Assembly: GCA_000989515.1 (NCBI GenBank)
Contig: LBOM01000003.1
Span: forward strand, 111,833-175,832
Length of the DNA: 64,000 nt
Direction of reading: 5' to 3'
DNA from: Candidatus Nomurabacteria bacterium GW2011_GWE1_32_28
GTDB taxonomy: Bacteria > Patescibacteriota > Minisyncoccia > Phycocordibacterales > UBA9973
The notes below the pieces were generated by a model that ran no database searches, was not told the origin of the DNA, and saw only the letters and a program-made list of their open reading frames with translations. Position 1 is the first letter of the stretch. Each line of letters begins with the position of its first letter. This document shows positions 5,270 to 42,174 of the stretch, piece after piece. The position numbers were made by a program, and so were the translations under genes.

Positions 5270-7762
5270 CTACTTAACTTCTCCAAAATTATTTCCAAAA
5301 CCAGAATGTACTATCAATGGAATGTCTGTTTTATATTGCAAATAAGATCTCTGAAGAACAGATTCCATTGCATTTTTAATAATTATCTCGACATTTTCAA
5401 GAATATCTTCTTCTACTTCATAAACTAATTCATCGTGTATCTGAAGAACAAGATGGGCTTTCTCTAAAAATCCTTCCCTCTTTAAATCTTCTTCAGAATA
5501 TCTTATCGCGAGTTTTATTATATCAGCAGTCGCTGTACCCTGAATTGGTGCATTGATGGCTGTGCGTTCAGCCATATTTTTTAAAAATGGAATTCTAGAA
5601 TTTATATTAGGAAAGTATCTTCTTCTATTAAACAATGTCTCTGTATATAAATGTCTTGTCGCAAAAATCTTTACACTTTCTAAATAATTTTTTACACCAG
5701 AAAATTGATTAAAATAATTATCATAAAATTTCTGTGCTTCTTCACGAGTACCACCTAAGCTCTTGCGTAAAGATGAAACACCCATACCATAAATAATTCC
5801 AAAATTTATTACTTTTGCCTTACGGCGCATCTCACCATCTACTTTTTCAAGTGGAACACCAAAAACAAAAGAAGCTACTCCAGAATGAATGTCTTTACCA
5901 TCACAAAATATTTGTGTCATTTTTGGGTCTCCCGAGAGCATAGCAGCGACACGAAGCTCTATTTGACTATAATCAAAAGTCAAAAGTTTATATCCTTTTC
6001 CTGCTATAAAACCATTTCGTATCTTTTTACCTAATTCTGTTTTAATAGGTAAATTTTGCAAATTTGGATCTTGAGAAGAAAATCTCCCCGTTGTTGTGCC
6101 GTTTTGTAAAAATTTTGCATGCAAACGATCATCTTCATCTGTCATTTTAGGAATTACATCAATATAAGTAGAAAGTAATTTCTGTAATTCTCTATAAGCT
6201 AATATTTCTTTTATTATTGGATTATTTTCTTCAAGTTCTTCTAATACAGAAACTTTTGTAGAAAAAGACCCACTCGCATTTTTCTTTTTGCTTGATTTCA
6301 TTCCCATTTTATCAAACAAAACTTCTCCTAATTGTTTTGGGGAATTTATGTTAAATTCTAAACCAGACATCTTATATATCTTTTGAGTTAATTTATCTAA
6401 TTCCTTGTGATACTCTTTTGATAAATTTTCAAAATATTTCTTATCTATCAGAATTCCATGGTCCTGCATTTTTTTTACCATGGGTATTATAGGTTTTTCT
6501 ATTTCTTTATATATTTTTTCTAATCCCTTATCTTTTAATTCTTTAAACACATATTCTTTTGCTATTTCAAAAGAATCAGTATTTGCATAATGCAAAACAT
6601 CATCTAGTGTTGGATTTGTAATATCTGAATTTATAATCCAAAGTGCAATTGCTGTTTCTTGTAATTTGTTTTTATCTATAATAATTGGCTTTTGGTGGAC
6701 GTGCTCAGAGGAGTATTCGCTACTACCAGATAAATCTTGCCCTTCCAAGATAGAGTGCGAACGACGGCGAGCATCGTCGCCAGAAGCCAAATTATTATTT
6801 TCATCAAAAAAACTTTTTAATCTTGAATATAGACTTCTAAATTCAAACACTGAAAACATATTTTCAATTTTTTTCAAATCTGCATTCTCCCAAAAAGTTT
6901 TTTCTTGTAATTTAAAATCAACAGGTGCATCAGTTCTTATTTTTGCTAATGTTTTTGAAAATAAAGCTTCTTCTTCGTTATCTTTCAAAAGTTGTATTAT
7001 ACGATCTGTAAGTCCTAATTTTTTAAATTCTAATTCGTAATTCGTAATTCGTAATTGTCTATAAATTTCTTCTATTGTTCCAAAATTAACAATCAAATTC
7101 GTCGCCGTCTTCTCACCAATTCCTTTAATACCAATAATATTATCAGATGGATCTCCTCTCAATCCTTTATAGTCTGGCAACAACTTCGGTTTAAAACCAA
7201 ACCTATCAATCATTTTTTCTTCATCATATAAAATAGTGTCATTAATCCCCTTCTTTAAAGTATAAACTTGTACTTTTTTACCATCAACTAATTGCATCGT
7301 GTCCATATCTCCTGATGCAATAATTATATTTATATCTGGAATTTTTTTTCCGCCAGAGGCGGATCCGCCTCTGGCGGAAATTTTCTCTACAATCGTACCT
7401 AATACATCATCAGCCTCAAAGCCTGGCGCATCATAAATAGGAATATTAAATGCATCAAAGATTTGTCGAGAGTTTTTTAGTTGTAAAATTAAAGCATCTT
7501 CAGTTTTTGCTCTCCCTAATTTATACCCATCGTATGCTTCATGCCTAAAAGTCTTTTGCGGTAAATCATAACAAGCAACAATATAATCTGGTTTTAGATC
7601 AGTAATTATTTTCATTAACATACTAGAAAGACCATACAATGCCCCAGTAGGCTCACCCTTAGAAGACAAAAACTCAGGCAATGCATGATAAGCACGATGT
7701 ATTATCGCATGAGCATCTAATAATACTAATGTTTTTGATAAATTTTTATTATTTTTGACCAT
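5270..7762 (-). CDS. polA: DNA polymerase I (5'-3' exonuclease plus polymerase domains; 3'-5' exo domain reduced)
   Basis: 830 aa. N-terminal 5' nuclease (LVLLDAHAIIHRAYHAL...) and C-terminal pol motifs (DYSQIELR, RRKAKVINFGIIYGM, QIHDELVYEV). It carries three foreign in-frame segments: a perfect palindrome at 7347-7380, a family-A element at 6705-6775 and a heptad repeat at 7026-7057. Confidence 0.95.
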   Translation of the reverse strand: MVKNNKNLSKTLVLLDAHAIIHRAYHALPEFLSSKGEPTGALYGLSSMLMKIITDLKPDYIVACYDLPQKTFRHEAYDGYKLGRAKTEDALILQLKNSRQIFDAFNIPIYDAPGFEADDVLGTIVEKISARGGSASGGKKIPDINIIIASGDMDTMQLVDGKKVQVYTLKKGINDTILYDEEKMIDRFGFKPKLLPDYKGLRGDPSDNIIGIKGIGEKTATNLIVNFGTIEEIYRQLRITNYELEFKKLGLTDRIIQLLKDNEEEALFSKTLAKIRTDAPVDFKLQEKTFWENADLKKIENMFSVFEFRSLYSRLKSFFDENNNLASGDDARRRSHSILEGQDLSGSSEYSSEHVHQKPIIIDKNKLQETAIALWIINSDITNPTLDDVLHYANTDSFEIAKEYVFKELKDKGLEKIYKEIEKPIIPMVKKMQDHGILIDKKYFENLSKEYHKELDKLTQKIYKMSGLEFNINSPKQLGEVLFDKMGMKSSKKKNASGSFSTKVSVLEELEENNPIIKEILAYRELQKLLSTYIDVIPKMTDEDDRLHAKFLQNGTTTGRFSSQDPNLQNLPIKTELGKKIRNGFIAGKGYKLLTFDYSQIELRVAAMLSGDPKMTQIFCDGKDIHSGVASFVFGVPLEKVDGEMRRKAKVINFGIIYGMGVSSLRKSLGGTREEAQKFYDNYFNQFSGVKNYLESVKIFATRHLYTETLFNRRRYFPNINSRIPFLKNMAERTAINAPIQGTATADIIKLAIRYSEEDLKREGFLEKAHLVLQIHDELVYEVEEDILENVEIIIKNAMESVLQRSYLQYKTDIPLIVHSGFGNNFGEVK
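6705..6775 (-). repeat. Family-A GC-rich inserted element, in-frame in polA (encodes ...[25 protein letters not shown]...)
   Basis: Near-identical to 435-500 (uvrA), in the same orientation relative to the coding strand. Confidence 0.7.
7026..7057 (-). repeat. (AATTCGT)n heptad tandem repeat, in-frame in polA (encodes LRITNYELEF)
   Basis: aattctaattcgtaattcgtaattcgtaattg. It belongs to the dispersed heptad family seen in intergenic regions and other genes across the window. Confidence 0.8.
7347..7380 (-). repeat. 34-bp perfect GC-rich palindrome inside polA (encodes ISARGGSASGGKKI)
   Basis: TTTCCGCCAGAGGCGGATCCGCCTCTGGCGGAAA is a perfect inverted repeat centred on GGATCC. Confidence 0.8.
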
Positions 7763-7827
7763 TCTTTGTATTATAGCATTTTTACAGTTGGTTATTCACC
7801 ATAAAATATTGTATTATTAAAAGATAA

Positions 7828-11898: not shown

Positions 11899-12438
11899 AT
11901 GTCAGGACATAATAAATGGTCACAAATAAAACACAAAAAGGGCATCACAGATGCGAAAAAGAGTAAAATTTTTTCTAAACTTGTGCGTTTTATATCAGTA
12001 GAAGCAAAGCTTGCAAGCGGAGATGTAAATGCACCAGGACTTAGAGCTGCAATAGAAAAAGCCAAAAAAGTAAATATGCCTTCTGAAAACATAGAAAGAG
12101 CAATAAAGAAAGCCTCAGAAACAGGAGCACAAATGGAGTCTATTGTATACGAAACTTATGGGCCAGGAGGTGTTGGTATTATAATTGAAACATTAACAGA
12201 CAGTAGAAACAGAACAGCTCAAGACATAAAGCACATCCTGAGTAAAAATAATTTTATGCTCGGTGGAATAGGATCAGTAGCCTGGTCTTTTACTAAAGAA
12301 AAAACAGAAGAAGGAATATTGTGGAAACCAAATATGTTTATATCAATTTCTGATGATGATTTGGTGTTATTAGATAAACTTGTAGAAGAACTAGAAGAAA
12401 ATGATGATGTGCAAGATATCTACACAAATGCAGAATAG
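11899..12438 (+). CDS. yebC: YebC/PmpR-family transcriptional regulator (short form)
   Basis: MSGHNKWSQIKHKKG...KIFSKL at the N-terminus is diagnostic for YebC. Confidence 0.85.
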   Translation: MSGHNKWSQIKHKKGITDAKKSKIFSKLVRFISVEAKLASGDVNAPGLRAAIEKAKKVNMPSENIERAIKKASETGAQMESIVYETYGPGGVGIIIETLTDSRNRTAQDIKHILSKNNFMLGGIGSVAWSFTKEKTEEGILWKPNMFISISDDDLVLLDKLVEELEENDDVQDIYTNAE

Positions 12439-12443
12439 GAACA

Positions 12444-12476
12444 ATTACGAATTATCAATTACGAATTACGAATTTA
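12444..12476. repeat. Heptad repeat (AATTACG orientation) between yebC and ruvC
   Basis: caattacgaattatcaattacgaattacgaatt followed by TAAAATATAC and the ruvC ATG 11 nt later. Confidence 0.8.
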
Positions 12477-12486
12477 AAATATACTT

Positions 12487-12999
12487 ATGATAATTTTAGG
12501 AATAGATCCTGGTTTTGAGAGACTAGGAATCGCCATATTAGAAAAGAACAGTGGTGACAAAAAAGAAAAAGTACTATTTTCTAAATGTTTTTACACATCT
12601 GCAAAATTAGAGTTTTCTGAAAGATTGGTTTTAATAGGAAAAGAAGTAAAAAGTATAATAAAAGAATTTAAACCAGATATTTTATCTATTGAAACTTTAT
12701 TCTTAACAACTAATCATAAAACAGTAATGCATGTAGCAGAGGCACGTGGTGTTGTTATATATGAAGCATCTTGTCGCGGATTAAAAATATTTGAAGCTTC
12801 TCCTCCACAAATAAAAATAGCTACAACTGGTTATGGAAAAGCAAACAAAGAACAGATAATGAAAATGGTAAAAATATTGGTTGATATAAATCAAAACAAA
12901 ACCCATCCAAACAATAACTCCATGGTTAAAGAATCTGATGATGAGCTAGATGCTATTGCTATAGCACTAACTGCTTTTGCATACATTAAAAAAATGTGA
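12487..12999 (+). CDS. ruvC: Holliday junction resolvase RuvC
   Basis: MIILGIDPGFERLGIAILE... with the RuvC catalytic D/E pattern. Confidence 0.9.
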   Translation: MIILGIDPGFERLGIAILEKNSGDKKEKVLFSKCFYTSAKLEFSERLVLIGKEVKSIIKEFKPDILSIETLFLTTNHKTVMHVAEARGVVIYEASCRGLKIFEASPPQIKIATTGYGKANKEQIMKMVKILVDINQNKTHPNNNSMVKESDDELDAIAIALTAFAYIKKM

Positions 13000-20615: not shown

Positions 20616-20684
20616 TTTTATCTGATGCTGAACTTTTAATTATTGGAAACATAAAAAGATTATTAATAAAGTTTTGTTTTTCAG

Positions 20685-28445: not shown

Positions 28446-28448
28446 CTT

Positions 28449-28476: not shown

Positions 28477-28477
28477 C

Positions 28478-29520: not shown

Positions 29521-29581
29521 ACTGGGTAGTTAAAAGTTTATAAAGTTTGTAAAGTCATAAAGTTAACTGATGAAGTTTAAA
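29521..29581. repeat. Second repeat family: (AAAGTTTAT / CATAAAGTT)-type nonamer tandem
   Basis: aaagtttataaagtttgtaaagtcataaagttaactgatgaagtttaaaag. Related tracts lie at 29950-29990 (actttatgaactttatgaactttatgaac) and 34190-34230. Confidence 0.7.
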
Positions 29582-29601
29582 AGATAATTAAGTTAATAAT
29601 A

Positions 29602-29949: not shown

Positions 29950-29990
29950 TTGCTTTCTACTTTATGAACTTTATGAACTTTATGAACTTT
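29950..29990. repeat. Nonamer tandem repeat (ACTTTATGA)x3-4 directly upstream of the Avd-like gene
   Basis: ctactttatgaactttatgaactttatgaacttttt. Confidence 0.75.
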
Positions 29991-30716
29991 TTACTCTATG
30001 GGCATTCTATAAGGGTCAACTCGTGTAAGTTCAGGTTTATTTCTTTCAGAAATTTTAGTAACATTTGGAATTGAATGATTCGTCTCAACTGTTGGAATAT
30101 TAAAAGATCCTGAAAGTTTTTGTGACAATAATGAAGGTGTATCTTTCTTTTTTTCTTCTAAATTTGTAATTGGTAATTGACCATTCGTAATTGATTTATC
30201 TTTTCCATCTGTTATTTCTAATTCGAAATTTGTAATTCCTAATTGTTTTTTATCTTTATCTTCATTCGTAATTCGTAATTCGTAATTGTTAATTGATTGT
30301 GTGTTTTCAATATGTTTTAACATTTCCTCCCTGCTTTCTATTAAATTTTCATTTATGTTTTCTGTGTTTTTGTTAGTTTTTTTATTTTTTTCAACACGCA
30401 TTACAAGTTCTTCGCGGATTTTTCTAAAAACTTTTTCGTTTATTTCATTTACTAGTTCATCTATTTGAGCTTTTGGTAGATTCATTCTAGTCTCCAATTC
30501 TTTTGGATAGTTTTCTGTATTAGTGAGCCCACAAAGCAATAATTCTGTTTCAATTTCAAGATTTTCTAGTTGTTCAAAGCTATATCCTTTTTCTTCTCGC
30601 ATTTTTATTATTATTGATTTCCAATCAACTGCATCAATAGCTTCTATCGTTTCTTTTGGCAATTCTTCTCTAGCTTTATTTATTTTTATTTGTAGCAAAT
30701 CTATTGTTGTATTCAT
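29991..30716 (-). CDS. Hypothetical acidic protein with a C-terminal segment encoded by heptad repeats
   Basis: 241 aa. C-terminal NNYELRITNEDKDKKQLGITNFELEITDGKDKSITNGQLPITNLEEK is translated from AATTCGT-family repeats at 30161-30296. Confidence 0.5.
   Translation of the reverse strand: MNTTIDLLQIKINKAREELPKETIEAIDAVDWKSIIIKMREEKGYSFEQLENLEIETELLLCGLTNTENYPKELETRMNLPKAQIDELVNEINEKVFRKIREELVMRVEKNKKTNKNTENINENLIESREEMLKHIENTQSINNYELRITNEDKDKKQLGITNFELEITDGKDKSITNGQLPITNLEEKKKDTPSLLSQKLSGSFNIPTVETNHSIPNVTKISERNKPELTRVDPYRMPIE
30161..30296. repeat. Three patches of heptad-family repeats (AATTNNT units) inside the 29991-30716 ORF
   Basis: aaatttgtaattggtaattgaccattcgtaattga ... tctaattcgaaatttgtaattcctaattg ... 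cattcgtaattcgtaattcgtaattgttaattgattg. Confidence 0.8.
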
Positions 30717-30740
30717 AATGTTTATTATATATTAATTATT

Positions 30741-33272
30741 TTATTTTTTTTCTTCTTTTATCCCTGAAAGAATTTTATTAGATGCTTCTCTTTCACCAGC
30801 AAATGAATGTTGCCCACCGGACATTATGAAACTAATAGTTTGTGCCACAGGAGTTAGGTTTGACTTAGCAAAATTTTCTCTTCTTGTTCTGTTTTCTGAA
30901 ATAATTAAGTTTTCAGCTATTTTTAGTGCTTTTTCAGCATCCTTTATAGGTCTTTCAGCAGTCTTGAGATTAGTTTTTGCTTCATCTAAACCTCCTACAC
31001 CAGAAGTAAGGTTGTCTCTTATATTAACTTTAGCAGTTCTATTGGCTCTAGCGGTATCTGCTTCGGTGCTTGCAGCACCAAACTTGTCTATTGTATCTTT
31101 TAATTCTCTTTCAGCTTTTATAACTTCTCTATCTGCTAAAGCAACATCTTTTTCTCTGTCTGCTATATCTTTTGTATATTGTGTTATATTAGCTTGGGTT
31201 GTTAAATCAGATTTTGCTTTATCAAGATCATTTTGTTTAGCGTGTACATCTTGTTTTAGTGTTTCATCTTCACCAACTTCTAATTCTTTTGCTCTCTTTT
31301 GTCTCTTTTCTACTTGGTCTGCTCGTCTCTTTACAAAACCACCCTCATTTTGTTTACCAAAAGTATTTACCTTAAGTCCTGTTGAAGCTAAATCTTTACC
31401 AGCAATTTTAATTCCACGAGCATCAAAACTTCCACTGCCAGTAAATTTACTAAAGCTTCTAAGTTGTTTAGCACCAAAAACTCCTCTAGCTTCTGCTGAT
31501 TTTAGTGTAGCTGAGTTTGCCATTGCAGCACCAGCTCTACCAAGTGTTGCTCTTCCTGCCATTGCCATTCCACCCGTAGCAGCACCGAGAGCTACGCCAC
31601 CTATCATTTTTGCTCCAGTCATTACAGCCTTCCCCATTTCACCAGAATATTTTACTACTAGTGACTTTGACTTTGTTAGGAGCATCATAAGTATAATAAA
31701 AGGTATTGTTATGCTCATCACATGCTGCATTGCATTCTGCCAAGAACTCATATCTGGATTATCTGCATATTTTACGACACTAGTAAGAAAACCAGTAAAC
31801 ATTACTATTATATAAAGCATAAAAGTGAATAGTGGTGCGAGGAATGCATTTTTTAGTAGATCATCCCACCATTCTTTGTGTCCAAAACCAGGAATATCAA
31901 AAGGTACTGTATATGAAACAAAAGCAAGTGGAGAGAATATCATAGAAATCCAAAGTGAAACAACTCTAGCCACAAAAAGAATAGCAATAGAGAAAAATAT
32001 ATATGCAGCATAGAGAGTGATGGCAATAAGTAAAAGTACTATAAAAATAGCATAACCCAATCCAAGGCCAGCGTTGTATGCATCTGAGACAATAGACTGA
32101 GGATTAAATTTACTAATTAGCCCTACTGAGATGGACTTTTGTCCACCAGCTTCAGCTTCAGATGTGTTTCCTTTTGTATCTTTTGAAACTATATTATTAT
32201 AAAATATTTTTGCCAGGATGTTTGATCCATCTATGACGATTTTTGTAGTGAATAAACTGAAATTTATAATTAGAGCTATTATAACAACGTATCCAATTAA
32301 TTTTTTATTATCTGTGACATTTAGATTAAGTATTGTCTTTATAGCCACGTAAAGAAGAGCAACTATGAAGAATATATTTGCTACATCTCTCACAGCACTC
32401 CATGCTTTTTCAATAAATATATTGCTATAAGAGGAGCTATTTGTTGCATAATAAACAAAAAAATCTAAAAAAGATCCTGCTAACATACCAACAAAAAAAG
32501 ATGCTTTCCAAATATAGTTAAATCCTTCTAAAATACAACCTCCAACGTTAACTGGATAAACAAAACTACAATTAAAACTTTCTGTTACATCTGTTCCAGT
32601 ATTACTGTATGAGTTTGATGTATCTGTAAAATTATTTTTTTCATCAGTAGGATTATATGCAGTTGTTGTGAATTCTTGTGATTTTATTATATCCTCATTA
32701 GTAAAATCAACCCAGTTCCAAATACTTTGTTTGGTTCCTGTCCCTTCATAAACCTCGAGTGATAATATATATGTAGTATTTGGTTTAAATGGAAATTTAT
32801 CTGTTCCAGTTTGTAAGTTTATGATTTCATTACTTGATGTACCCAACAAAAAAGGCAAAGCTAGTTCTCTCCAAGATAGACATTTTGGATCGTTTGGGTC
32901 ACTTTTTTCTTTATAACATATAAAGACTCCTTCTTGAGATATATTTTCTATTGCACCCTCTATTAAAAGGTAAGCATCATATATTGGTACTTTATTAGTA
33001 TCAATTTCACGTTGTGTATTAAATTCTTTATCATTAGTATCTTCGCTAATAATAACGCCTGCACTAAAGTTTACTGAGTTAGAACTTATAGAATTAATTT
33101 TTATATAAGAATTTTTATCTAAATATTCTGCTATATTTATTGCTTCAGCTTTTTTTATTTCTATTCCGAGGGTTAAATATTTATCACTTATTTTAATGTT
33201 TAAAGAAATAGGCACTATAAAAATAGCTACCATGACTATCGATATTAGAATTTTTGATAAATATTTTTGCAT
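30741..33272 (-). CDS. Large polytopic membrane protein, VirB6/TrbL-like candidate (signal/TM, extracellular domain, >=6 TM, C-terminal Gly-rich coiled-coil)
   Basis: 843 aa. TM cluster FFVGMLAGSFLDFFVYYA...IALIINFSLFTTKIVIDG...AIFIVLLLIAITLYAAYIFFSIAILFVARVV...PLFTFMLYIIVMFTGFL, then Gly/Ala-rich GAKMIGGVALGAATGGMAMAG and a coiled-coil tail. The VirB6 assignment is by topology only. Confidence 0.4.
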   Translation of the reverse strand: MQKYLSKILISIVMVAIFIVPISLNIKISDKYLTLGIEIKKAEAINIAEYLDKNSYIKINSISSNSVNFSAGVIISEDTNDKEFNTQREIDTNKVPIYDAYLLIEGAIENISQEGVFICYKEKSDPNDPKCLSWRELALPFLLGTSSNEIINLQTGTDKFPFKPNTTYILSLEVYEGTGTKQSIWNWVDFTNEDIIKSQEFTTTAYNPTDEKNNFTDTSNSYSNTGTDVTESFNCSFVYPVNVGGCILEGFNYIWKASFFVGMLAGSFLDFFVYYATNSSSYSNIFIEKAWSAVRDVANIFFIVALLYVAIKTILNLNVTDNKKLIGYVVIIALIINFSLFTTKIVIDGSNILAKIFYNNIVSKDTKGNTSEAEAGGQKSISVGLISKFNPQSIVSDAYNAGLGLGYAIFIVLLLIAITLYAAYIFFSIAILFVARVVSLWISMIFSPLAFVSYTVPFDIPGFGHKEWWDDLLKNAFLAPLFTFMLYIIVMFTGFLTSVVKYADNPDMSSWQNAMQHVMSITIPFIILMMLLTKSKSLVVKYSGEMGKAVMTGAKMIGGVALGAATGGMAMAGRATLGRAGAAMANSATLKSAEARGVFGAKQLRSFSKFTGSGSFDARGIKIAGKDLASTGLKVNTFGKQNEGGFVKRRADQVEKRQKRAKELEVGEDETLKQDVHAKQNDLDKAKSDLTTQANITQYTKDIADREKDVALADREVIKAERELKDTIDKFGAASTEADTARANRTAKVNIRDNLTSGVGGLDEAKTNLKTAERPIKDAEKALKIAENLIISENRTRRENFAKSNLTPVAQTISFIMSGGQHSFAGEREASNKILSGIKEEKK

Positions 33273-33310
33273 TTTGTTTCTAACTTTTTTCCTTCTCTAT
33301 TTATTTACTT

Positions 33311-33356
33311 TCTGTATTTTAAATTCGTAATTCGTAATTGTTAATTCGTAATTGAC
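33311..33356. repeat. Heptad element with conserved flank TTCTGTATTTTAAATTCGTAATTCGTAATTGTTAATTCGTAATTGAC
   Basis: The 50-nt string is identical to 34236-34282 and closely related to 40769-40800, 26556-26596 and 25441-25470. It lies ~45 nt upstream (gene sense) of the 30741-33272 start. Confidence 0.85.
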
Positions 33357-34183
33357 TTACCTTTTTTCTTCTCCAAGAAGTTATCTTTTGTAACCACTGA
33401 ATGTCCTAACCTTTTTTCTAATTTTTTACGTGCTCCACCAGCTATATTTCCTCCTGCTTTTGCATCAGATTTTAATTTTGAAATTCCTTTGGAATGCTCT
33501 TTCTTGTGTATTTCTGTCGTTGCTGTTTCAGCAAGCATATTTAACACAAGTTCAAGATTCGTCATATTATCTCTCAGACTTTGTTTTTTTAATTCTTTAA
33601 GATTTTTATATTCTTTTGTCGTGAGTCCTGCCCAAGCCTTCGTGATCTCATCTGTTAGTATAGCAAATTCTTTGCCTTCCTTTACTCCACGGTTTTCCCA
33701 TTCATCAGTTAATGATTTTCGGATTTCAATACTTTTTAATCTTTGATTTATCCAGTTTTGACTATATCCTTTTTGTAGATATGTTTTTAACGCACGATTT
33801 ATAGAAAGCTCTGGGTCTGCTGTTTCTTCTAATCTCTCATAGCCTACACGAGCAAGCCAGAGTTTAAATGGTTCAGCTTTTGGTGATGGAATAGATTGAA
33901 TTAAACGGAACATTACTTCTGTGTCAGCTACATCAGTAATATAATATTTACCATCTGATGCTTGCATTTTCAGATGGTGACATTTTGTCACCATCTCACT
34001 ACCTTCGTCACGAAGTCTTTGAGCTAGCTTGTTCCAGTATTTTCTTGCATCAATACTTTCTGTTAAAACTTTAACTACATCAACAACCGAAAAATACCAT
34101 AATTCTTTTTCAGCATCCCAGTGTCTGCGAATTTCTTTGTTGTCAAAAATTGCTATTTTATTTTTTGTATTTTTCTTTTGCAT
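33341..34183 (-). CDS. Bro-N / DinD-family protein (phage antirepressor-like, DNA-damage-inducible protein D family)
   Basis: 280 aa. N-terminal Bro-N pattern KIAIFDNKEIRRHWDAEKELWYFSVVDVVKVLTES. The C-terminal half parallels E. coli DinD. Paralog of 62223-63065. Confidence 0.65.
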   Translation of the reverse strand: MQKKNTKNKIAIFDNKEIRRHWDAEKELWYFSVVDVVKVLTESIDARKYWNKLAQRLRDEGSEMVTKCHHLKMQASDGKYYITDVADTEVMFRLIQSIPSPKAEPFKLWLARVGYERLEETADPELSINRALKTYLQKGYSQNWINQRLKSIEIRKSLTDEWENRGVKEGKEFAILTDEITKAWAGLTTKEYKNLKELKKQSLRDNMTNLELVLNMLAETATTEIHKKEHSKGISKLKSDAKAGGNIAGGARKKLEKRLGHSVVTKDNFLEKKKGKSITN

Positions 34184-34235
34184 TTTACTTTCTAACTTTA
34201 TAAACTTTATGACTTTCTACTCTCTCCTGTTCTTT

Positions 34236-34282
34236 TTCTGTATTTTAAATTCGTAATTCGTAATTGTTAATTCGTAATTGAC
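34236..34282. repeat. Heptad element (identical copy of 33311-33356)
   Basis: ttctgtattttaaattcgtaattcgtaattgttaattcgtaattgactta. Confidence 0.85.
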
Positions 34283-36712
34283 TTATCGTTTTTTGAAGTA
34301 GTATTCGTAATCAGAAGCATCTTTGAGTATCGTAGATGTGTTTCTTATGTCTATAATCTTATCATAATAATATTCATACACTGTTAATTTATTTCCAATG
34401 AGCTGGAGCTGATATGCTGCCACGTCTGGTTCACTTACACGTATTTCTCTACCGTCTTCAGTGACATAACCAAACATCCTTGCAATTTGATCTGATAGAT
34501 ACCATGCAAAATTTTGTAAATCTGTGCCTTCTTCATAGCCATATAATTTAGCGAATTCTTTGTCTGCCATTATTTGTCTTGTAAAAACTGTTTCTATTCC
34601 TTCATGATATCGCACAACATCACCTTCTCGTGGAGTCACTTTTTGTCCCAATGTAAGAGGTGTTGTATTTATTATACCAGTATTGTTTGTATTATTATTT
34701 CCAGTATTGTTTGTATTGTTGCCGGTTACTCCAGGGATCCAAACACCAGCTACCCATGTTCCAGGAGTCCAAGCATCGTCTACCCAAGATACTGGAGTCC
34801 AAGCACCATCCATCCAAGCTGTAGGAATCCATGTATTGTTTTCCCAAATCTCAGCAATCCATGTACCATTTTCCCAAGATCCATTAGTCCATCCATCGTC
34901 TCCAGTCCAGTCTGTGTCTCCGTTGGTATCAACATAAATATATGCATTGCCACTTGCTGTTCCCTTGTCTCCATTACAAGATACAGAAAAAGATGTTGAA
35001 GATGCAGGACGAACTCTTTGTTGTCCATTTAGACCAACAGAGATTCCATCAAATTTACAAGAAGTAGTGTTTTCAGATGACCAAGTTATCGTTGCTGGGC
35101 CATCTTTTTCTGATAGATAATAAGAGTCTGCTGTTACTCTGACCTTGGGTAATGATTTATAATAATCATCTTCGCCATCTCCACCCTCTCCTTCTCCGCT
35201 AGTATTAACATAAACATATGCATTAGCACTTGCTGTTCCGTTAGGGCCACTACATGTTATTGAATAAGAAGTAGATGATGTAGGTTGAACAATCGCTGGT
35301 TTTCCTGCGCTATTTGTTGCTACTGTATTTTTTACTTCTTTATCTCCAAAAGAACAGGAAGTGGTGTTTGTTGATGTCCAATTTATTGTTGAAGAATCAC
35401 CAGGAGAAATTGTATAAGGATTTGCTGAAAGGATTACTGTAGGGAAAATATTATTATAGATACAAAAAGTTTTTGATTCATTTAAAATATATGGAGGAGT
35501 ACATGTAGGAGTATATCCATAACTATCACACGTAGGATAATTAATAGCACCATTTGTACAATAATCCCAACCAGTACCATTATCACTTCCATCACCCCAA
35601 TTAGAGCCATCGTCTCCTCCATAAGGAGTATTCTTCGGTGCAGCTTTTGTTGTGAAACTAAAAGTAGAACCAGTAATTTTTACAGTATCTTCTCCTGTCG
35701 CCATAAAAATATATTTTGTAGATGGTCTTAATCCTGATAATGAAAAACTTATATTTCCATAAATATTACTACGGTTACCTATGGTGTAAGATTTTTCTCC
35801 GACATCCTTCCAAGAGGGAGCTACTTCTTTAAATGCATATATTTCAGTATATGGTCTATCTTCTTTATATCGGAAATAAGTTTTTAGGTCCTTAACGGAA
35901 TTATAAGAACCATTTAATTTTGCGGACGTTGAAGTTATTTGTGTCGCATCTTTTGTTTCAATTATTGTTTTTAATGGGGCTGTGCGGAAGTCTTTTACTA
36001 TACTGTCTCCACCATAGGCTATATTATTCTTATTAGAAATAATTGCACAATAATAATAAGTAGTATCTGGTATTAAGTTTTCAATTTCTTGAGAAAAAGT
36101 CTGTTCTCCTGTAATTAATTTTAAAAATAAATCTTTTGTTGATTTCATTTTTGTTCCATAGATATCATTACAAAAAATAGGGGCTATTTTTTCTTTTGAA
36201 TATCTAAAATATGCAGTAATTGGGAGTGTTGGATTTGTAGTAGTATAGCCACCCTTTCCCCATAATCTTGCGGTAGTTTGTGTTACCTCATCTGCACCTA
36301 TTGTTTGTATGGAGAGCTTAGAAGTATCTGAAGGAGAAGATACTGGTATATTTTTTACATTTATTGTTATTGTTCTTGGTCCTACTTCTACTTCTGTATT
36401 TCTTTCTTCGTCATACCCATAACAATTAAGTGTGTATACACTTTCTTTTTCATTTGGGGTAACTACTAAATTTCCACTTCCACTTAATGACGACGTATCA
36501 TTTATTTTACAAGATGTTGAATAGTCAGATGAAGACGAAGACCAAGAAAGAGTGACTGACTCTCCATTGTTTATTGAGTAAGAAGAAGCTACAAAGTTAT
36601 TTATATAAAGAAAAAAGGTGTTGTATTCTTGTTGTGCAGAAACATTGTTTATATAAAATGCACTTAAAATAAATATGAATATTATTAGAATTTTTAGTAT
36701 GTTTTTTTTCAT
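34283..36712 (-). CDS. Large secreted repeat protein (Ig/FN-like modules, Trp-rich tandem repeats)
   Basis: 809 aa with a signal peptide. Repeated Cys-containing modules (YTLNCYGYDEE / YSITCSGPNGTASANAYVYV / FSVSCNGDKGTASGNAYIYV) and a W-rich tract WIAEIWENNTWIPTAWMDGAWTPVSWVDDAWTPGTWVAGVWIPG. Confidence 0.55.
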   Translation of the reverse strand: MKKNILKILIIFIFILSAFYINNVSAQQEYNTFFLYINNFVASSYSINNGESVTLSWSSSSSDYSTSCKINDTSSLSGSGNLVVTPNEKESVYTLNCYGYDEERNTEVEVGPRTITINVKNIPVSSPSDTSKLSIQTIGADEVTQTTARLWGKGGYTTTNPTLPITAYFRYSKEKIAPIFCNDIYGTKMKSTKDLFLKLITGEQTFSQEIENLIPDTTYYYCAIISNKNNIAYGGDSIVKDFRTAPLKTIIETKDATQITSTSAKLNGSYNSVKDLKTYFRYKEDRPYTEIYAFKEVAPSWKDVGEKSYTIGNRSNIYGNISFSLSGLRPSTKYIFMATGEDTVKITGSTFSFTTKAAPKNTPYGGDDGSNWGDGSDNGTGWDYCTNGAINYPTCDSYGYTPTCTPPYILNESKTFCIYNNIFPTVILSANPYTISPGDSSTINWTSTNTTSCSFGDKEVKNTVATNSAGKPAIVQPTSSTSYSITCSGPNGTASANAYVYVNTSGEGEGGDGEDDYYKSLPKVRVTADSYYLSEKDGPATITWSSENTTSCKFDGISVGLNGQQRVRPASSTSFSVSCNGDKGTASGNAYIYVDTNGDTDWTGDDGWTNGSWENGTWIAEIWENNTWIPTAWMDGAWTPVSWVDDAWTPGTWVAGVWIPGVTGNNTNNTGNNNTNNTGIINTTPLTLGQKVTPREGDVVRYHEGIETVFTRQIMADKEFAKLYGYEEGTDLQNFAWYLSDQIARMFGYVTEDGREIRVSEPDVAAYQLQLIGNKLTVYEYYYDKIIDIRNTSTILKDASDYEYYFKKR

Positions 36713-36735
36713 TTTTTGTTTGAGATTCTTTCTGT

Positions 36736-39639
36736 TTAATAAATTCCTATAATACTTTCAAATTGACCACTTTGGTATTTGCCATATATATTTGTTCCTA
36801 AGGCTCTTTTTATATTACCCCTAAATGCTTCTTCTTCATCATTTCCAGTAGACCCTTTTCCATCGTGTATTTTTAATGGTATCAAATCACCAATTAGTAG
36901 TCTGTCAGGGAAATCAGAAAAATTACTACCTTGGAACAATACAAAGCTTAAGAATCCTGGGCCCAGTTTATCATTTGTTTCAACCTCAGTCGTTTCTGGC
37001 ATTTTATTTTTAAAACCTACTTCTCCTTCTTTTGTCCAAGGATCTGGTATATCACTTCCATTTTCATAAAGATTATAATCGTAGAGTATAGGGAAAGGAT
37101 ATGTCATTCTCTTTACAGATAGGACGTTGTATCCAATCCATGGAGTTTTGCTTACTATTTCTTTCGTTTCTTCTCTTGATGGGGTGGCGTATCTGTCTGC
37201 GCTATAGGTGTAGGTTTTGTAGTCTTTTGAGATTGTAAATCCTTTTTGTTCTGATTCCGCAAGAGATTTTTCACAACCGTAAGGTCCTTTTAGTAGGTTT
37301 TTATATATATCATCTTTTTTATCTTTGATTTGTTGTAATAGATCGTCTGCACTCGCTATGTCATTTCCATTTACCATATTCATAGACAGTCTACCAAAAG
37401 TATCTATTTGTAGTTTTAATTCATTTTCATAATTTTCTCCACCATCTGGATATTTCTTGTTTAAGTTGTTTACTTCTTCTTTTATTTGACCTAATATATT
37501 TACGATACTTTTTATTTGAACTATTTTATCTTCATTGTTTTTTACCATCTGCCCATAGCCAGTTAATCGATTGAAATTTAATGCTGCTGCTTTTGCAGCT
37601 TCAGGTAATAATTCTGATTTATTTGAAAAATATGTATCATTCATAATTTCAATATATCTGTCTAAAATTCGATTTAACACATTTACGACACCTCCCTTGC
37701 TTGAGATGTTGAGTGCAGCTGAACGGTTTGGTGACCCGTAGTCAGCCAGGATACCAGTAAAGGCTTTAATAATTGATGAATAATAAATTCTGACTTTTCT
37801 TGCATCTGCATCTGAATCATCAGAAAATAAGCTTGTGATGTAACCTATTACTACCCCAAGCGCTGCACCTATTATTGTACCTACGATTGGGACTGCTGAT
37901 CCAAGTGTTGCACCGAGAGCCGCACCACCCAACCATCCTGCTATTACTGTCGCACCGACAGCTGCACCAGCCATTGGTAATAGAGATTGTACTAATCCGC
38001 CAACCTTATCTTCACTTATGTTTTTAAGGCTATTTTCTGTTTCTGGTAAAATGGTATCTGTCACAGCGGCCAATACTTTTCTAGAATCATTCTCCCATCC
38101 TGGATGAGGACCTGGTATACAATAATCTAATTGAGATATTAACGGTATGAGTCCATATGCATTAGATTGTCCATACGTGGCCGAGTTTTTATCAGTATTA
38201 ATTGCGTAGTTTTTCCCGTCCGTTGTAGAAAAGAGTTCTTTGTTTTGTTCTTCAAGTTTATCAGAATATGTTCGCTGTTCATCTATTAAGGCTTGTGTGA
38301 GGTCTGTACGAATATCAAAATTTGGATTGGCTTTTAGCCAAGAACTTGAAAGCTGAGATGGCATAAAATCTTTTTCTGTTTTACTTCTATATTTTTCAGT
38401 TGAACCACTTGTATCAAAGACGAGATTTCCATTAGATCCATCATTTCCTATATTTGCAAATCCTTTTTCCATAATATTAGAAGAGAATTGAGCCAAAAGA
38501 GCATCTAATACAGCAGCAACTGAATCATTTAAATCTTCTACATTTAAATAAGAATTATTTGGATAGTCTATGACATTTGTGGCTGCATCGGAAATCATTT
38601 TTCCTGGAGTTACATATTCCCAATTTCCTCCTCTTGCCTTACATGGATCTTCTTCTCCTGCTTCTAGCGCGGCGTCTACATCAGTTTGTGTCATTTTAGA
38701 ATCGACACTGCAACGCATGTCACCCAAGAACCCATTTGCCTGAGACAGTGCTTCGTGTACATTTTCTGCAGTAGATTGTACTGTTCCTTGTAGTCTACTT
38801 TGTATTTCATTATCAGCCATTATTTTAAAACCAATAGGGTTATTTGCTGGAGATTGTGTCATAGCTGTCCATGCGTCCCACCCACCCTGGCTGAAATCTA
38901 GTTGAAAAGTTTTAGCAGAGTATTCTGGATTAGTGTTTTGAATAAGTTCATTAAGGGAATATCGTGCATTGTCTTGGAATTTATTATTGAAAGCTGTAGC
39001 TGTATTTTGCATCCAAGCTTTTCCAAATGGAAATAATTCTGGATTATTTATTTCTGCACCAAATTGTAGTATTTCATTTTTTGCTATGTCATTAAAAAAT
39101 TTTCCAGGATTTTGTATAAATGCAGGACTGCCATCAAAACCACTATTAATCCAATTGACAGTACTCACTGTTAATTTTTGTAAAAGCATTTTGATGATTA
39201 ATCTTCCAATGCTTTGAATACAAGTAGAGTTTGCATTTAATGAAGCAGTACTTGTTTCAATCTTATCTATTTTTGCTTTGATTTCGTTAAGTTTTTCTGT
39301 ATTAGTAGGATCATTGACTTGAATAGATTCAAAATCTGTTGTTAAGGTTTCTGCTTCTTGTTCCAAGAGTCTTTTTTCTATATCAGCATTATGTTCAGCA
39401 TAAAAATCACCAAGTCCGTCTGTAAGTCCACTTCCGATTCCACTAAATAGATCATTTATTCCACTATTTATTATTTCTTGGCATTGTGGCAAGGCGGCGA
39501 TAGCAGGAGCAAGACCACTCGTGTAAGCTCCAAAACTTTGTGCTTCTACTTTCTTAGGCAAAAAACCTAAAGGCATCAAGGTTATACTTAAGACAAGAAT
39601 AAAAGAAATTATTGAATTTTTAAAATTTTTCTGTTGCAT
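36736..39639 (-). CDS. Large secreted/membrane protein with central glycine-zipper TM segment
   Basis: 967 aa with a signal peptide. Central LLPMAGAAVGATVIAGWLGGAALGATLGSAVPIVGTIIGAALGVVIGYITSLF. No enzymatic motif recognised. Confidence 0.55.
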   Translation of the reverse strand: MQQKNFKNSIISFILVLSITLMPLGFLPKKVEAQSFGAYTSGLAPAIAALPQCQEIINSGINDLFSGIGSGLTDGLGDFYAEHNADIEKRLLEQEAETLTTDFESIQVNDPTNTEKLNEIKAKIDKIETSTASLNANSTCIQSIGRLIIKMLLQKLTVSTVNWINSGFDGSPAFIQNPGKFFNDIAKNEILQFGAEINNPELFPFGKAWMQNTATAFNNKFQDNARYSLNELIQNTNPEYSAKTFQLDFSQGGWDAWTAMTQSPANNPIGFKIMADNEIQSRLQGTVQSTAENVHEALSQANGFLGDMRCSVDSKMTQTDVDAALEAGEEDPCKARGGNWEYVTPGKMISDAATNVIDYPNNSYLNVEDLNDSVAAVLDALLAQFSSNIMEKGFANIGNDGSNGNLVFDTSGSTEKYRSKTEKDFMPSQLSSSWLKANPNFDIRTDLTQALIDEQRTYSDKLEEQNKELFSTTDGKNYAINTDKNSATYGQSNAYGLIPLISQLDYCIPGPHPGWENDSRKVLAAVTDTILPETENSLKNISEDKVGGLVQSLLPMAGAAVGATVIAGWLGGAALGATLGSAVPIVGTIIGAALGVVIGYITSLFSDDSDADARKVRIYYSSIIKAFTGILADYGSPNRSAALNISSKGGVVNVLNRILDRYIEIMNDTYFSNKSELLPEAAKAAALNFNRLTGYGQMVKNNEDKIVQIKSIVNILGQIKEEVNNLNKKYPDGGENYENELKLQIDTFGRLSMNMVNGNDIASADDLLQQIKDKKDDIYKNLLKGPYGCEKSLAESEQKGFTISKDYKTYTYSADRYATPSREETKEIVSKTPWIGYNVLSVKRMTYPFPILYDYNLYENGSDIPDPWTKEGEVGFKNKMPETTEVETNDKLGPGFLSFVLFQGSNFSDFPDRLLIGDLIPLKIHDGKGSTGNDEEEAFRGNIKRALGTNIYGKYQSGQFESIIGIY

Positions 39640-41194: not shown

Positions 41195-41226
41195 GTATAT
41201 ATTATAACAATATTAAAAGAACAGTG

Positions 41227-42174
41227 CTACTCTTTTTTGTTGATATCTATGATTTTTGTGAGATTGATCCAATCTGAGAGAGTTAAATTTTCTGCTCTTT
41301 TGTTTCCAAGAGATTCTAACTTAATCATCGAGTCAAGGGCGGAGGCAATTCCTCCGCCCTTGAGAAATGTTTTTAAATTTGAGGAGAGTTTTTTTCTTTT
41401 ATGGGCAAAGCCAGTATGTATTATTTCCCAAAATTTCTCTTCATTTAGTTTATTTTTGATAAAAATTTTTCTTGAGATGTTTTTTATAGCGATTATTGCG
41501 GAATCTACCTTTGGGGCAGGAGAAAAATACCTTGAAGGCACCTTCATAATTATTTTAGGGCTCCCATATGCCTTTACTGATATGGATAAAATACTTTCCT
41601 TGCCGTCGCGTGCGACTATTCTCTTTGCTACTTCGTTTTGTACCATCAAGATCATCATCTCTGGTTGTTCTTTTTCTGAAAGAAACTTTTTCAATATGGC
41701 ACCAGTTATATTATAGGGAATATTAGCGATAATTTTATAAGAAAAATAATGAGGAATATTATTTTTAAAACCACACATATTTCCCTGCTGGGAAATTGCT
41801 ATGCTCGGCTCGACAGCCTGCGCAATGCTTTTAAAAACAACATTCCTCATTATTTTTCTAATTTGTAATTTGTAATTTGTAATTTGTAATTTTAGTATGT
41901 CATCATTTATTAAAATTAATTTCTGGTTTTTTATTTCTTCAGAGAATTTAATTTTTAGAAGTTCATAAAGTTCGTAGTCTTTTTCTATGGCTACAACACA
42001 GCCTGCTTTTTCTAAAAGTTTTTCTGTTAAGGCACCCTTTCCGGGTCCTATTTCTAGTATAATATCTCGAGAAGAAACTTCTCCAGCCTCTACTATTTTT
42101 TTTAATGCGATAGTAGATTTTAAGAAATTTTGACCTAATGATTTTTTTGCTTTGTGTATTTTCTGCATTTTCAA
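41227..42174 (-). CDS. rsmA: 16S rRNA (adenine1518/1519-N6)-dimethyltransferase
   Basis: SLGQNFL...ILEIGPGKGALTEKL... is the KsgA family signature. It has two foreign in-frame segments: a palindrome at 41333-41363 (encodes LKGGGIASAL) and an (AATTTGT)n repeat at 41858-41892 (encodes LKLQITNYKLQI). Confidence 0.9.
   Translation of the reverse strand: MKMQKIHKAKKSLGQNFLKSTIALKKIVEAGEVSSRDIILEIGPGKGALTEKLLEKAGCVVAIEKDYELYELLKIKFSEEIKNQKLILINDDILKLQITNYKLQIRKIMRNVVFKSIAQAVEPSIAISQQGNMCGFKNNIPHYFSYKIIANIPYNITGAILKKFLSEKEQPEMMILMVQNEVAKRIVARDGKESILSISVKAYGSPKIIMKVPSRYFSPAPKVDSAIIAIKNISRKIFIKNKLNEEKFWEIIHTGFAHKRKKLSSNLKTFLKGGGIASALDSMIKLESLGNKRAENLTLSDWINLTKIIDINKKE
41333..41363 (-). repeat. 31-bp GC-rich palindrome inside ksgA
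   Basis: TCAAGGGCGGAGG-CAATT-CCTCCGCCCTTGA is a perfect 13-bp inverted repeat. Confidence 0.8.
41858..41892 (-). repeat. (AATTTGT)5 heptad tandem repeat, in-frame in ksgA
   Basis: ctaatttgtaatttgtaatttgtaatttgtaatttt. Confidence 0.8.

What the first reader, a model, noticed from the sequence alone, without database searches (positions are those of the whole stretch)
7347..41363. Perfect GC-rich palindromes embedded in polA and ksgA coding sequence
polA contains the 34-bp perfect palindrome TTTCCGCCAGAGGCGGATCCGCCTCTGGCGGAAA, which encodes ISARGGSASGGKKI. ksgA contains TCAAGGGCGGAGG-CAATT-CCTCCGCCCTTGA, which encodes LKGGGIASAL. Both add Gly-rich loops and are extremely GC-rich against a very AT-rich background. 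They look like REP/RPE-type palindromic insertions, which could act as hairpin-forming recombination or regulatory sites inside mRNAs.
Basis: seen in the sequence. Interest (0 to 1): 0.6.

Follow-up and report, generated by a model that had tools for sequence, protein, structure and literature searches.

The report
Translated GC-rich palindromic repeats in genes
Two essential genes of an AT-rich, uncultured groundwater bacterium (Candidatus Nomurabacteria) carry short GC-rich DNA palindromes; at least one belongs to a widespread family of small repeats that sit in frame inside many housekeeping genes and are read as short flexible loops, a bacterial habit already known from Rickettsia and a few other groups.

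Summary
The window comes from Candidatus Nomurabacteria GW2011_GWE1_32_28 (31% GC).

**polA palindrome.** It is one copy of a dispersed 30-34 bp repeat, T-N-TCCGCC-NNN-GGCGGA-TCCGCC-NNN-GGCGGA-N-A.
- I found 9 more copies in related Patescibacteria genomes and at least 125 in metagenome contigs.
- The 20 host ORFs I annotated cover about 15 kinds of gene, most of them housekeeping (DnaE, DnaG, GyrB, MutL, RecG, UvrC, FtsK, aaRS, KsgA).
- In ORFs of 250 aa or more, 58 of 66 copies lie in the one phase that reads SAxGGSAxGG.
- In DNA not selected with the pattern, that peptide is always encoded by the palindrome's own GC-rich codons.
- About 60 of 79 orthologous polA loci have only the short loop at this site. 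At least six other GC-rich palindromes occupy the same loop in other lineages.

**ksgA palindrome.** I saw it only at its own loop: near full length in one distant ortholog and shortened or decayed in three.

**Other repeats.** The window holds three more in-frame repeat families, in uvrA, uvrB, uvrD, polA, the CCA enzyme gene and ksgA.

**Verdict.** Intragenic REPs in repair genes are already published, so this is a new variant of a known kind, found in a CPR bacterium.

The parts
7347..7380 (.). 34-bp perfect palindrome. The 30-bp core TCCGCC-AGA-GGCGGA-TCCGCC-TCT-GGCGGA is one copy of the dispersed 'SAxGGSAxGG' repeat family. It is translated on the minus strand as (I)SARGGSASGG(KK).
5270..7762 (-). 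Host gene polA (5'-nuclease plus polymerase domains). The palindrome peptide is residues about 129-142, in a low-confidence loop between helix 117-129 and strand 144-150.
41333..41363 (.). 31-bp hairpin element (13-bp stems, 5-nt loop CAATT/AATTG), translated on the minus strand as LKGGGIASAL.
41227..42174 (-). Host gene ksgA/rsmA. The annotated protein P0121 starts at the ATG at 42168. The palindrome peptide falls where the model's pLDDT drops to 56 (the 271-280 block).
41740..41862 (-). Family Z: a 123-bp long-hairpin element of RPE-like size (-57.7 kcal/mol), in frame in ksgA. It is 99% identical in two orthologous ksgA genes, and other copies occur elsewhere.
6718..6777 (-). Family X repeat in the polA inter-domain linker (...[21 protein letters not shown]...).
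447..506 (-). Family X repeat in the gene that runs off the left end of the window. By synteny with L203 this gene is uvrA.
50830..50889 (+). Family X repeat inside the CCA-adding enzyme gene (49923-51512).
2230..2293 (.). Family Y repeat (about 63 bp) in frame in uvrB (1408-3660, -).
43123..43186 (.). Family Y repeat in frame in uvrD/pcrA (42211-44268, -). Relative to its host gene it is in the opposite orientation to the uvrB copy. Its internal hairpin stem differs but stays paired.

Best explanation
Both palindromes are best read as short, non-autonomous palindromic repeat elements of the REP kind that sit in frame inside essential genes.

**Shown.**
- The polA element is one copy of a repeat family dispersed across many genes and genomes.
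- The window copy adds exactly 30 nt (10 codons) and has no target-site duplication.
- Copies inside long genes lie almost only in the reading phase that gives Ser/Ala/Gly.
- The encoded peptide sits in a low-confidence loop of the protein model.

**Inferred.**
- The element spreads as a single-stranded DNA hairpin, moved in trans by an HUH Y1 (RAYT-like) transposase of the type found in sister genomes.
- Insertions land more or less at random. Selection then keeps those in permissive surface loops and in the benign phase.
- A perfect palindrome reads the same in either orientation. Its codons pair as TCC/GGA, GCC/GGC and AGA/TCT, that is Ser/Gly, Ala/Gly and Arg/Ser. Any in-phase insertion therefore yields the same small flexible loop.
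- The elements are selfish or neutral passengers with no function required at these sites. As a side effect, each puts a hairpin of about -30 kcal/mol in the mRNA.
- The ksgA hairpin is an element of the same kind at a loop that has been hit repeatedly. Related lineages carry decayed remnants.
For: **The polA element is a dispersed family.**
- Near-identical copies occur in L075 at the same polA site, although that PolA is only 56% identical.
- Copies occur at two other polA sites (L034, L038 twice, L062, L003) and in other genes (L026 twice).
- The 20 host ORFs annotated include DnaG, FtsK, RecG, DnaE, AlaRS, MutL, GyrB, UvrC, PolX, the CCA enzyme, GatB and others; 18 of the 20 had Pfam matches. 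KsgA is a host in L129 and L170.
- No gene family recurs next to the copies.

**It is an insertion, not a conserved motif.**
- About 60 of 79 orthologous loci have the short 5-aa loop (KKDKN or a variant) with no GC-rich palindrome.
- The motif's distribution on a PolA tree is patchy.

**Phase and codons.**
- In ORFs of 250 aa or more the phase counts are 58:0:8. In ORFs under 120 aa they are 8:12:7.
- The peptide is never encoded by other codons in 1.45 Mb of DNA that was not selected with the pattern.

**The same loops are reused.**
- At least six other GC-rich palindromes sit at the polA loop in other lineages.
- At least three or four hairpin types sit at the ksgA loop.

**Structure models.** pLDDT is below 50 at PolA residues 131-142 and averages 56 over KsgA residues 271-280.

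**Candidate transposase.**
- Y1_Tnp genes that best match NCBIfam REP_Tyr_transpos are flanked by cognate hairpins in L203, L017, L043, L061, L020, L032, L185 and L213.
- The ksgA hairpin shares the stem-AGG/CAAnn/CCT-stem layout of some of those hairpins.

**Other families and published precedent.**
- Three further in-frame repeat families lie in uvrA, uvrB, uvrD, polA, the CCA enzyme gene and ksgA.
- Intragenic REPs in replication and repair genes are described in PMC3733652. In-frame RPEs are described in PMC10969869.
Against: - No transposase is linked to either palindrome. The window has no Y1_Tnp gene. None of the 120 best RAYT homologs lies on the window's 410,552-bp contig. Every RAYT gene examined is flanked by a different hairpin.
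- The window holds one copy of each palindrome, so copy number in this genome is unknown.
- The exact ksgA sequence was found only at the orthologous ksgA site.
- The palindrome nucleotides are more conserved than synonymous sites of the host gene. It is 34/34 and 33/34 identical, against third-base identity of 0.71 and 0.60. This could mean selection on the hairpin itself.
- Transposition has not been observed. A minority of copies have flanking direct repeats of 5-14 nt that the model does not explain.
- Translation of the inserts is inferred from open frames and phase bias, not from protein data.
Confidence: 0.78

Rival explanations
1. The hairpins are functional structures selected at these particular sites. 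They could be translational pause or mRNA-stability elements, or DNA cruciform or recombination sites. On this view, the different hairpins at the same loop are convergent solutions.
For: - Nucleotides, including GC-rich third positions, are kept between lineages whose synonymous sites have diverged. The ksgA palindrome is 29/31 identical to the L208 copy, although third-base identity of the two genes is only 0.56.
- Unrelated hairpins occupy the same loops in polA and ksgA.
- In family Y the stems differ between copies but stay paired.
- The predicted hairpins are strong.
Against: - About 60 of 79 polA orthologs and many ksgA orthologs have no GC-rich hairpin at the site.
- The same 30-mer lies in many unrelated genes at unrelated positions, and also between genes.
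- The NNN triplets inside the arms do not covary.
- No Rfam family matches.
Confidence: 0.1
2. The ksgA palindrome, and possibly others, arose locally by hairpin-templated (quasi-palindrome) mutation. It then moved between lineages only by homologous recombination of the gene segment, not by transposition.
For: - The ksgA sequence is seen only at the orthologous site, with stems of 6 to 14 bp in different orthologs and a loop of the same length as hairpin-free orthologs.
- P0030 shares the flanking KKNPEI as well as the polA palindrome with P0002. Its sister lineages lack both, which looks like transfer of a patch of the gene.
Against: - A GC-rich 13-bp stem in a 31% GC genome is hard to obtain by local mutation.
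- Compared with L207, both arms differ, not just one.
- The polA-type element does occur at many non-homologous sites.
Confidence: 0.09
3. The Gly/Ser/Ala peptide is a selected protein feature (a flexible linker), and the palindrome is incidental.
For: There is a strong phase bias towards SAxGGSAxGG in long ORFs, and the peptide lies in loops.
Against: - The peptide is never encoded by AT-rich synonymous codons, although the hosts are AT-rich.
- Copies exist outside genes and in other phases.
- Only 3 of 120 orthologs carry it.
Confidence: 0.02
4. The palindromes are assembly or amplification artefacts (inverted chimeras).
For: Perfect palindromes can arise from MDA or assembly errors. The source is a metagenome-assembled genome.
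Against: - The same insert is at the same site in independent assemblies from other samples (L203, L204, L205, L075).
- The inserts keep the frame open, and variant copies differ by point changes.
Confidence: 0.01

Closest known systems
Intragenic REPs: GTAG- and CGTC-tagged palindromic repeats (Di Nocera et al. 2013, PMC3733652)
   Same: - They are 20-40 bp palindromic repeats.
- Some copies lie inside genes and encode extra amino acids.
- The reported hosts are replication and repair genes (UvrABC, UvrD, Pol I, DnaE) and tRNA synthetases. This is the same set seen here.
- A RAYT-type Y1 transposase is the suspected mobiliser.
   Different: - Neither palindrome has a GTAG or CGTC tag.
- In the sample taken here the polA-type family is mostly intragenic, whereas known REPs are mainly extragenic.
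- Its core is a fully symmetric double hairpin.
- The host is a CPR bacterium.
- No cognate RAYT was identified.
Rickettsia palindromic elements (RPE)
   Same: - They are palindromic repeats inserted in frame in unrelated housekeeping genes of an AT-rich reduced genome.
- The inserted peptides are thought to be compatible with the protein fold.
- Family Z in ksgA (123 bp) is of RPE size.
   Different: - RPEs are about 100-150 bp and belong to Rickettsia.
- The two palindromes here are 31-34 bp.
- The polA-type family occurs in contigs of 28-72% GC.
REPIN/RAYT systems (Bertels and Rainey 2011)
   Same: - The polA element is two inverted copies of a short hairpin unit that can fold into one long hairpin, like a REPIN doublet.
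- RAYT-like genes flanked by REP hairpins exist in sister genomes.
   Different: - REPINs are about 100 bp, extragenic, lineage-specific and tied to a single-copy RAYT.
- None of these features could be shown here.
GC clusters and byp elements of yeast mitochondrial genomes (from my own knowledge, plus the title of PMC8811140 listed)
   Same: They are GC-rich palindromic mobile inserts in very AT-rich genomes, and some lie inside coding sequence.
   Different: - Byp elements are skipped by the ribosome and need not keep the frame.
- Here the frames stay open and the phase is strongly biased, which indicates translation.

Membership tests
REP (repetitive extragenic palindrome, GTAG/CGTC superfamilies) | Short (20-40 bp) palindromic unit able to form a stem-loop | tested here: met
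   The units are 34 bp and 31 bp with stems of 17 and 13 bp.
REP (repetitive extragenic palindrome, GTAG/CGTC superfamilies) | GTAG or CGTC tetranucleotide tag at one end | tested here: not met
   The flanks of the polA type are T-N / N-A: T at -2 in 106 of 125 copies and A at +2 in 105 of 125. The ksgA flanks are GAG / AGA. In contrast, the hairpins flanking the RAYT gene in L203 do end in GTAG.
REP (repetitive extragenic palindrome, GTAG/CGTC superfamilies) | Many copies within one genome | tested here: inconclusive
   There is one copy of each in the 64-kb window, and the rest of the 410-kb contig could not be read. Other genomes have up to 2 copies of the polA type in 4.5-13 kb.
REP (repetitive extragenic palindrome, GTAG/CGTC superfamilies) | Predominantly extragenic location | tested here: not met
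   Of 125 polA-type copies, 66 lie in ORFs of 250 aa or more and 32 in ORFs of 120-249 aa. Both window copies are intragenic.
REP (repetitive extragenic palindrome, GTAG/CGTC superfamilies) | A cognate RAYT gene flanked by the same repeat | tested here: not met
   RAYT-like genes occur in related genomes but are flanked by other hairpins. There is none in the window. None lies next to the 125 copies, apart from an unlinked one in L185.
Rickettsia palindromic elements (RPE) | In-frame insertion in unrelated, conserved protein genes | tested here: met
Rickettsia palindromic elements (RPE) | Size about 100-150 bp and sequence similarity to RPE families 1-10 | tested here: not met
   The two palindromes are 31-34 bp. 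Only family Z (123 bp) is of RPE size. Similarity to RPE sequences was not tested, and the organism is a CPR bacterium.
Rickettsia palindromic elements (RPE) | Insert lies at the protein surface or in a loop, leaving the fold intact | tested here: met
   In the AlphaFold models pLDDT is below 50 at PolA residues 131-142, between a helix and a strand, and averages 56 over KsgA residues 271-280. The PolA model is only moderate overall (mean pLDDT 65).
MITE | Terminal inverted repeats plus a target-site duplication of fixed length | tested here: not met
   There is no consistent duplication. The window copy adds exactly 30 nt. Only 8 of 125 copies have a 5-nt direct repeat, and 3 have repeats of 7-14 nt.
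Translational bypass (byp) or intron-like inserts | The insert is not translated, so frame and phase are unconstrained | tested here: not met
   All 79 polA loci that include this region keep one frame across the site. The phase counts in long ORFs are 58:0:8.

The most novel reading that the evidence does not exclude
The 30-bp double hairpin TCCGCC-NNN-GGCGGA-TCCGCC-NNN-GGCGGA is a mobile element spread across Patescibacteria, and possibly across phyla, that lives mainly inside essential genes. Its codon-symmetric palindrome (Ser/Gly, Ala/Gly and Arg/Ser codon pairs) would be an adaptation. It makes every in-phase insertion, in either orientation, translate into the same harmless loop. This would give the element refuges in genomes that have almost no intergenic DNA. 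Its mobilising enzyme is not a canonical GTAG-REP RAYT.
Probability: 0.3. Interest if true: 0.7.

Novelty: new variant of a known kind. Interest (0 to 1): 0.5.

Why it matters
- CPR/Patescibacteria genomes are tiny and gene-dense, and their proteins are known for unexplained lineage-specific insertions. This result traces some of those insertions to short palindromic repeats that are translated.
- It extends the Rickettsia RPE and intragenic-REP phenomenon to a very different branch of bacteria, again mostly in DNA repair and replication genes.
- It has practical consequences. These inserts inflate apparent protein divergence, can mislead alignments and phylogenies, and offer presence/absence markers for strain tracking.
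- If the family really moves between distant hosts and is adapted to being translated, it would be an unusual life strategy for a selfish element.

Tried and rejected
- **Rfam.** Neither the gathering nor the permissive E-value scan gave a match at any insert.
- **Covariation of the two NNN triplets in 125 copies.** There is none. Complementarity is 1.43 against 1.60 in shuffles. The common AAA/TCT and AGA/TTT forms are one variant read on either strand. The data therefore cannot tell the long hairpin from two short hairpins.
- **A shared neighbouring gene (transposase) near the 125 copies.** No recurrent family was found.
- **A RAYT in the window's own genome.** I searched with the L203 RAYT. 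There were 7,916 hits, but none of the best 120 lies on the 410,552-bp contig. This is inconclusive.
- **PDB sequence search with that RAYT.** No hit.
- **ksgA-type pattern in viral contigs.** The 15 hits are unrelated GC-rich hairpins in contigs that are mostly 50-69% GC. I discarded them.
- **Opposite orientation of the L208 ksgA hairpin.** I first read it as inverted. The difference is only 1 versus 2 loop bases, so I dropped the claim.
- **Fixed target-site duplication.** Rejected. Only a minority of copies show one, and that signal is unexplained.
- **DNA-uptake-sequence idea.** Rejected by inference from density: one copy in 64 kb.
- **Missing DNA.** DNA for P0003 (the empty-site relative) and P0130 was not available.
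- **Literature.** Searches for this motif or for palindromic inserts in CPR found nothing specific.


Full report
**1. The observation**

Both sequences are present exactly as described. The 34-bp perfect palindrome is at 7347-7380 and the 13+5+13 hairpin at 41333-41363. No shuffle of the window produces either one.

The host ORFs are polA (5270-7762, minus strand) and ksgA/rsmA (41227-42174, minus strand). The polA ORF is 100% identical to a PolA with the 5'-nuclease and family-A polymerase domains. The source is Candidatus Nomurabacteria bacterium GW2011_GWE1_32_28, a CPR/Patescibacteria genome.

The window is 30.9% GC. A scan for perfect GC-rich hairpins (stem of 7 bp or more) finds only four in 64 kb, and these two are far the longest. 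As RNA they fold at -30.6 and -31.8 kcal/mol, with z-scores of -6.6 and -7.7.

**2. The polA site in orthologs**

I compared 120 PolA orthologs (73-85% identity) and 79 orthologous loci from related genomes.
- Most have a 5-residue loop (KKDKN or similar) between the conserved GTIVEK and NIIIASGDMD motifs.
- The window adds 10 residues, which is exactly 30 nt.
- Only P0002 and P0030 share SARGGSASGG. L075 carries almost the same 32 nt at the same site, although its PolA is only 56% identical.
- On a tree built from the polymerase domain these carriers do not form one clade. The window's sister, P0005, carries a different insert.
- Other lineages carry other GC-rich palindromes at this same loop. 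Examples are CCTCCCCCTTA-T-TAAGGGGGAGG, CCCTCTCCTT-GAT-AAGGAGAGGG, CCCCTCTC-TTGACAG-GAGAGGGG and TCCGCCAG-CTGGCGGA.

The site is therefore a hot spot. The palindrome is not a conserved protein motif.

**3. The polA palindrome is a dispersed repeat**

In the 1.3 Mb of related genomes there are further copies, 90-97% identical.
- They lie at two other positions in polA (L034, L038 twice, L062, L003) and in other genes (L026 twice).
- All coding copies read as SA[KR]GG[SP]A[SP]GG.

These hold 125 copies, in contigs of 28-72% GC. With 24 specified bases, my estimate is that chance matches are negligible.

The flanking bases extend the palindrome: T at -2 in 106 of 125 copies and A at +2 in 105 of 125.

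The 20 host ORFs I annotated cover about 15 kinds of gene, most of them housekeeping. They include DnaG, FtsK, RecG, DnaE, AlaRS, MutL, GyrB, UvrC, PolX, the CCA enzyme, GatB and ComM. KsgA is a host in L129 and L170. No gene family recurs next to the copies.

**4. Translation and selection**

| ORF length containing the copy | Phase 0 | Phase 1 | Phase 2 |
|---|---|---|---|
| 250 aa or more | 58 | 0 | 8 |
| Under 120 aa (probably intergenic) | 8 | 12 | 7 |

- Phase 0 gives SAxGGSAxGG, phase 1 gives RxRRIRLWRK and phase 2 gives PPxADPPxAE.
- In 1.45 Mb of DNA that was not selected with the pattern, the peptide SAxGG[SP]AxGG is always encoded by the GC-rich palindrome and never by AT-rich synonymous codons. 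The conserved entity is therefore the DNA, not the peptide.
- The phase bias indicates that the inserts are translated and filtered by selection.
- The AlphaFold model puts the peptide in a low-confidence loop (pLDDT below 50 at residues 131-142) between a helix and a strand.

The window copy is identical to the L203 copy (34/34) and 33/34 identical to the L205 copy. Third-base identity in conserved codons of the same genes is 0.71 and 0.60. This modest excess conservation could reflect recent acquisition, gene conversion, or selection on the hairpin.

**5. The ksgA palindrome**

No copy of this sequence was found away from the ksgA loop. Hits in viral contigs are unrelated GC-rich hairpins.

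At the orthologous loop:
- L208 (71% aa identity) has a nearly identical 14-bp-stem version.
- L207 and L210 have the inner 7-bp-stem core, ACGGAGG-AATTG-CCTCCGT.
- L206, the closest relative sequenced, has a decayed version.
- L211 has a different hairpin, TGTCAAAG-AGACA-CTTTGACA.
- L209 has AT-rich sequence of the same length and no hairpin.
- Protein alignments indicate further insert types at this loop (CQRDTLT, VRQDLTQ, DPLLISPLAGGEK...).

The hairpin's layout is a stem ending in AGG, a 5-nt loop CAAnn, then CCT. Hairpins that flank RAYT-like genes in L020, L043, L061 and L185 have the same layout. This similarity is a lead, not proof. The KsgA model has reduced confidence here (pLDDT 56 for the 271-280 block).

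**6. Candidate mobilising enzyme**

The closest sequenced relative (L203/L204, PolA 85% identical, with the same polA palindrome) has a 218-aa Y1_Tnp gene between ruvC and yebC.
- Its best NCBIfam match is REP-associated tyrosine transposase, at 46.8 bits, which is below the 80-bit cut-off.
- It has an HUH motif.
- It is flanked by 1+3 copies of the REP TACCAAGGG-TTC-CCCTTGGTA, and three of those four copies are followed by G, giving a GTAG tag.

In the window, yebC and ruvC are adjacent with no such gene. Homologs are very common in CPR, with 7,916 hits, and each has its own flanking hairpin. None could be tied to either palindrome.

**7. Other in-frame repeat families in the window**

- **Family X (about 60 bp).** It lies in polA, in the left-end gene (uvrA by synteny) and in the CCA enzyme gene. 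In relatives it also lies in uvrB and uvrA. It is always in the same orientation and frame.
- **Family Y (about 63 bp).** It lies in uvrB and uvrD, in opposite orientations relative to the host genes. Its internal stem differs in each of three copies but stays paired.
- **Family Z (123 bp).** This hairpin (-57.7 kcal/mol) lies in ksgA. It is 99% identical in two orthologs whose genes are about 80% identical, and it has copies elsewhere.

These families make the general picture robust: this lineage accumulates palindromic repeats inside housekeeping genes.

**8. Comparison with what is known**

- Di Nocera et al. 2013 (PMC3733652) described GTAG- and CGTC-tagged REPs. [quoted passage not shown] That is the same host set as here.
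- RPEs of Rickettsia are the classic in-frame case.
- The present elements differ in five ways. They lack the GTAG/CGTC tag. In the sample taken they are mostly intragenic. The polA type is a fully symmetric double hairpin. They occur in a CPR bacterium. They have no identified RAYT partner.
- Searches found no paper describing this motif or such inserts in CPR.

**9. Verdict**

The REP/RPE interpretation is supported strongly for polA and moderately for ksgA. The proposed regulatory or recombination role is untested, and site-specific function is unlikely. The mechanism of spread is inferred, not shown. The minority of copies with flanking direct repeats remains unexplained.

Noticed in passing
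window 447-506, 6718-6777, 50830-50889: Family X is a GC-rich repeat of about 60 bp. It is always in the same orientation and frame ([21 protein letters not shown]). It lies inside polA, the left-end gene (uvrA by synteny) and the CCA-adding enzyme gene, and in relatives also in uvrB and uvrA.
   Followed up: partly
window 2230-2293 and 43123-43186: Family Y is a repeat of about 63 bp, in frame in uvrB and uvrD in opposite orientations. Its internal 7-bp stem is entirely different in each copy but stays complementary (CTGAGCG/CGCTCAG versus CTAGGTC/GACCTAG). A third copy, in L020, has yet another stem.
   Followed up: partly
window 41740-41862: Family Z is a 123-bp long hairpin (-57.7 kcal/mol), in frame in ksgA. 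It is 99% identical in two orthologs whose genes are only about 80% identical, and it has copies at other loci (L006, L011, L203).
   Followed up: partly
window about 41863-41890: A heptamer, ATTACAA, is repeated four times in tandem inside ksgA, just upstream (in the direction the gene is read) of family Z.
   Followed up: no
L203 3122-4308 (sister genome); window 11899-12999: A RAYT-like Y1 transposase gene flanked by GTAG-tagged REP hairpins lies between ruvC and yebC in the closest relative. It is absent from the same junction in the window.
   Followed up: yes
window 3926-3939 and 3999-4012: The first bases of tRNA-Lys (AAATGCGCCCGTAG) are duplicated 73 bp upstream of the gene. This could be a remnant of an integration site.
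   Followed up: no
window 17609-21334: dnaN and dnaA lie next to the most AT-rich stretch of the window (24.6% GC at 18-20 kb). This is probably the replication origin region.
   Followed up: no
window 22683-39639: A run of minus-strand genes mostly has no Pfam match. It includes a TraG/VirB4-like P-loop ATPase (26607-28445), a PrgI-family protein, a Bro-N protein, a '23S rRNA intervening sequence protein' and several proteins of 800-970 aa. It may be a conjugation- or secretion-like island.
   Followed up: no
window 22574-22664: An inverted repeat is built from tandem ATTACGA units (AATTTAAAATTACGAATTACGAAT / ATTCGTAATTCGTAATTTGAAATT, 96% complementary). It lies across the 3' end of the R3H-domain gene and the intergenic space that follows.
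   Followed up: no
window 52893-52906 and 55132-55145: A 14-nt inverted pair, GTTCGAGTGCGGGC, brackets a 2.2-kb segment. The segment holds an exo/endonuclease-phosphatase gene and a XerC/D-like integrase gene.
   Followed up: no
L081-L200 (metagenome copies of the polA-type repeat): A minority of copies are flanked by direct repeats. Eight of 125 have a perfect 5-nt repeat one base outside the core (0.8 expected). Three have repeats of 7-14 nt (L142, L156, L161). In several high-GC contigs the core sits at the centre of a longer palindrome.
   Followed up: partly
L213 2749-2770: A CCCTCCCCT-GCGA-AGGGGAGGG palindrome lies inside a peptide chain release factor gene next to a RAYT-like gene. This is another example of an in-frame GC-rich hairpin.
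   Followed up: no
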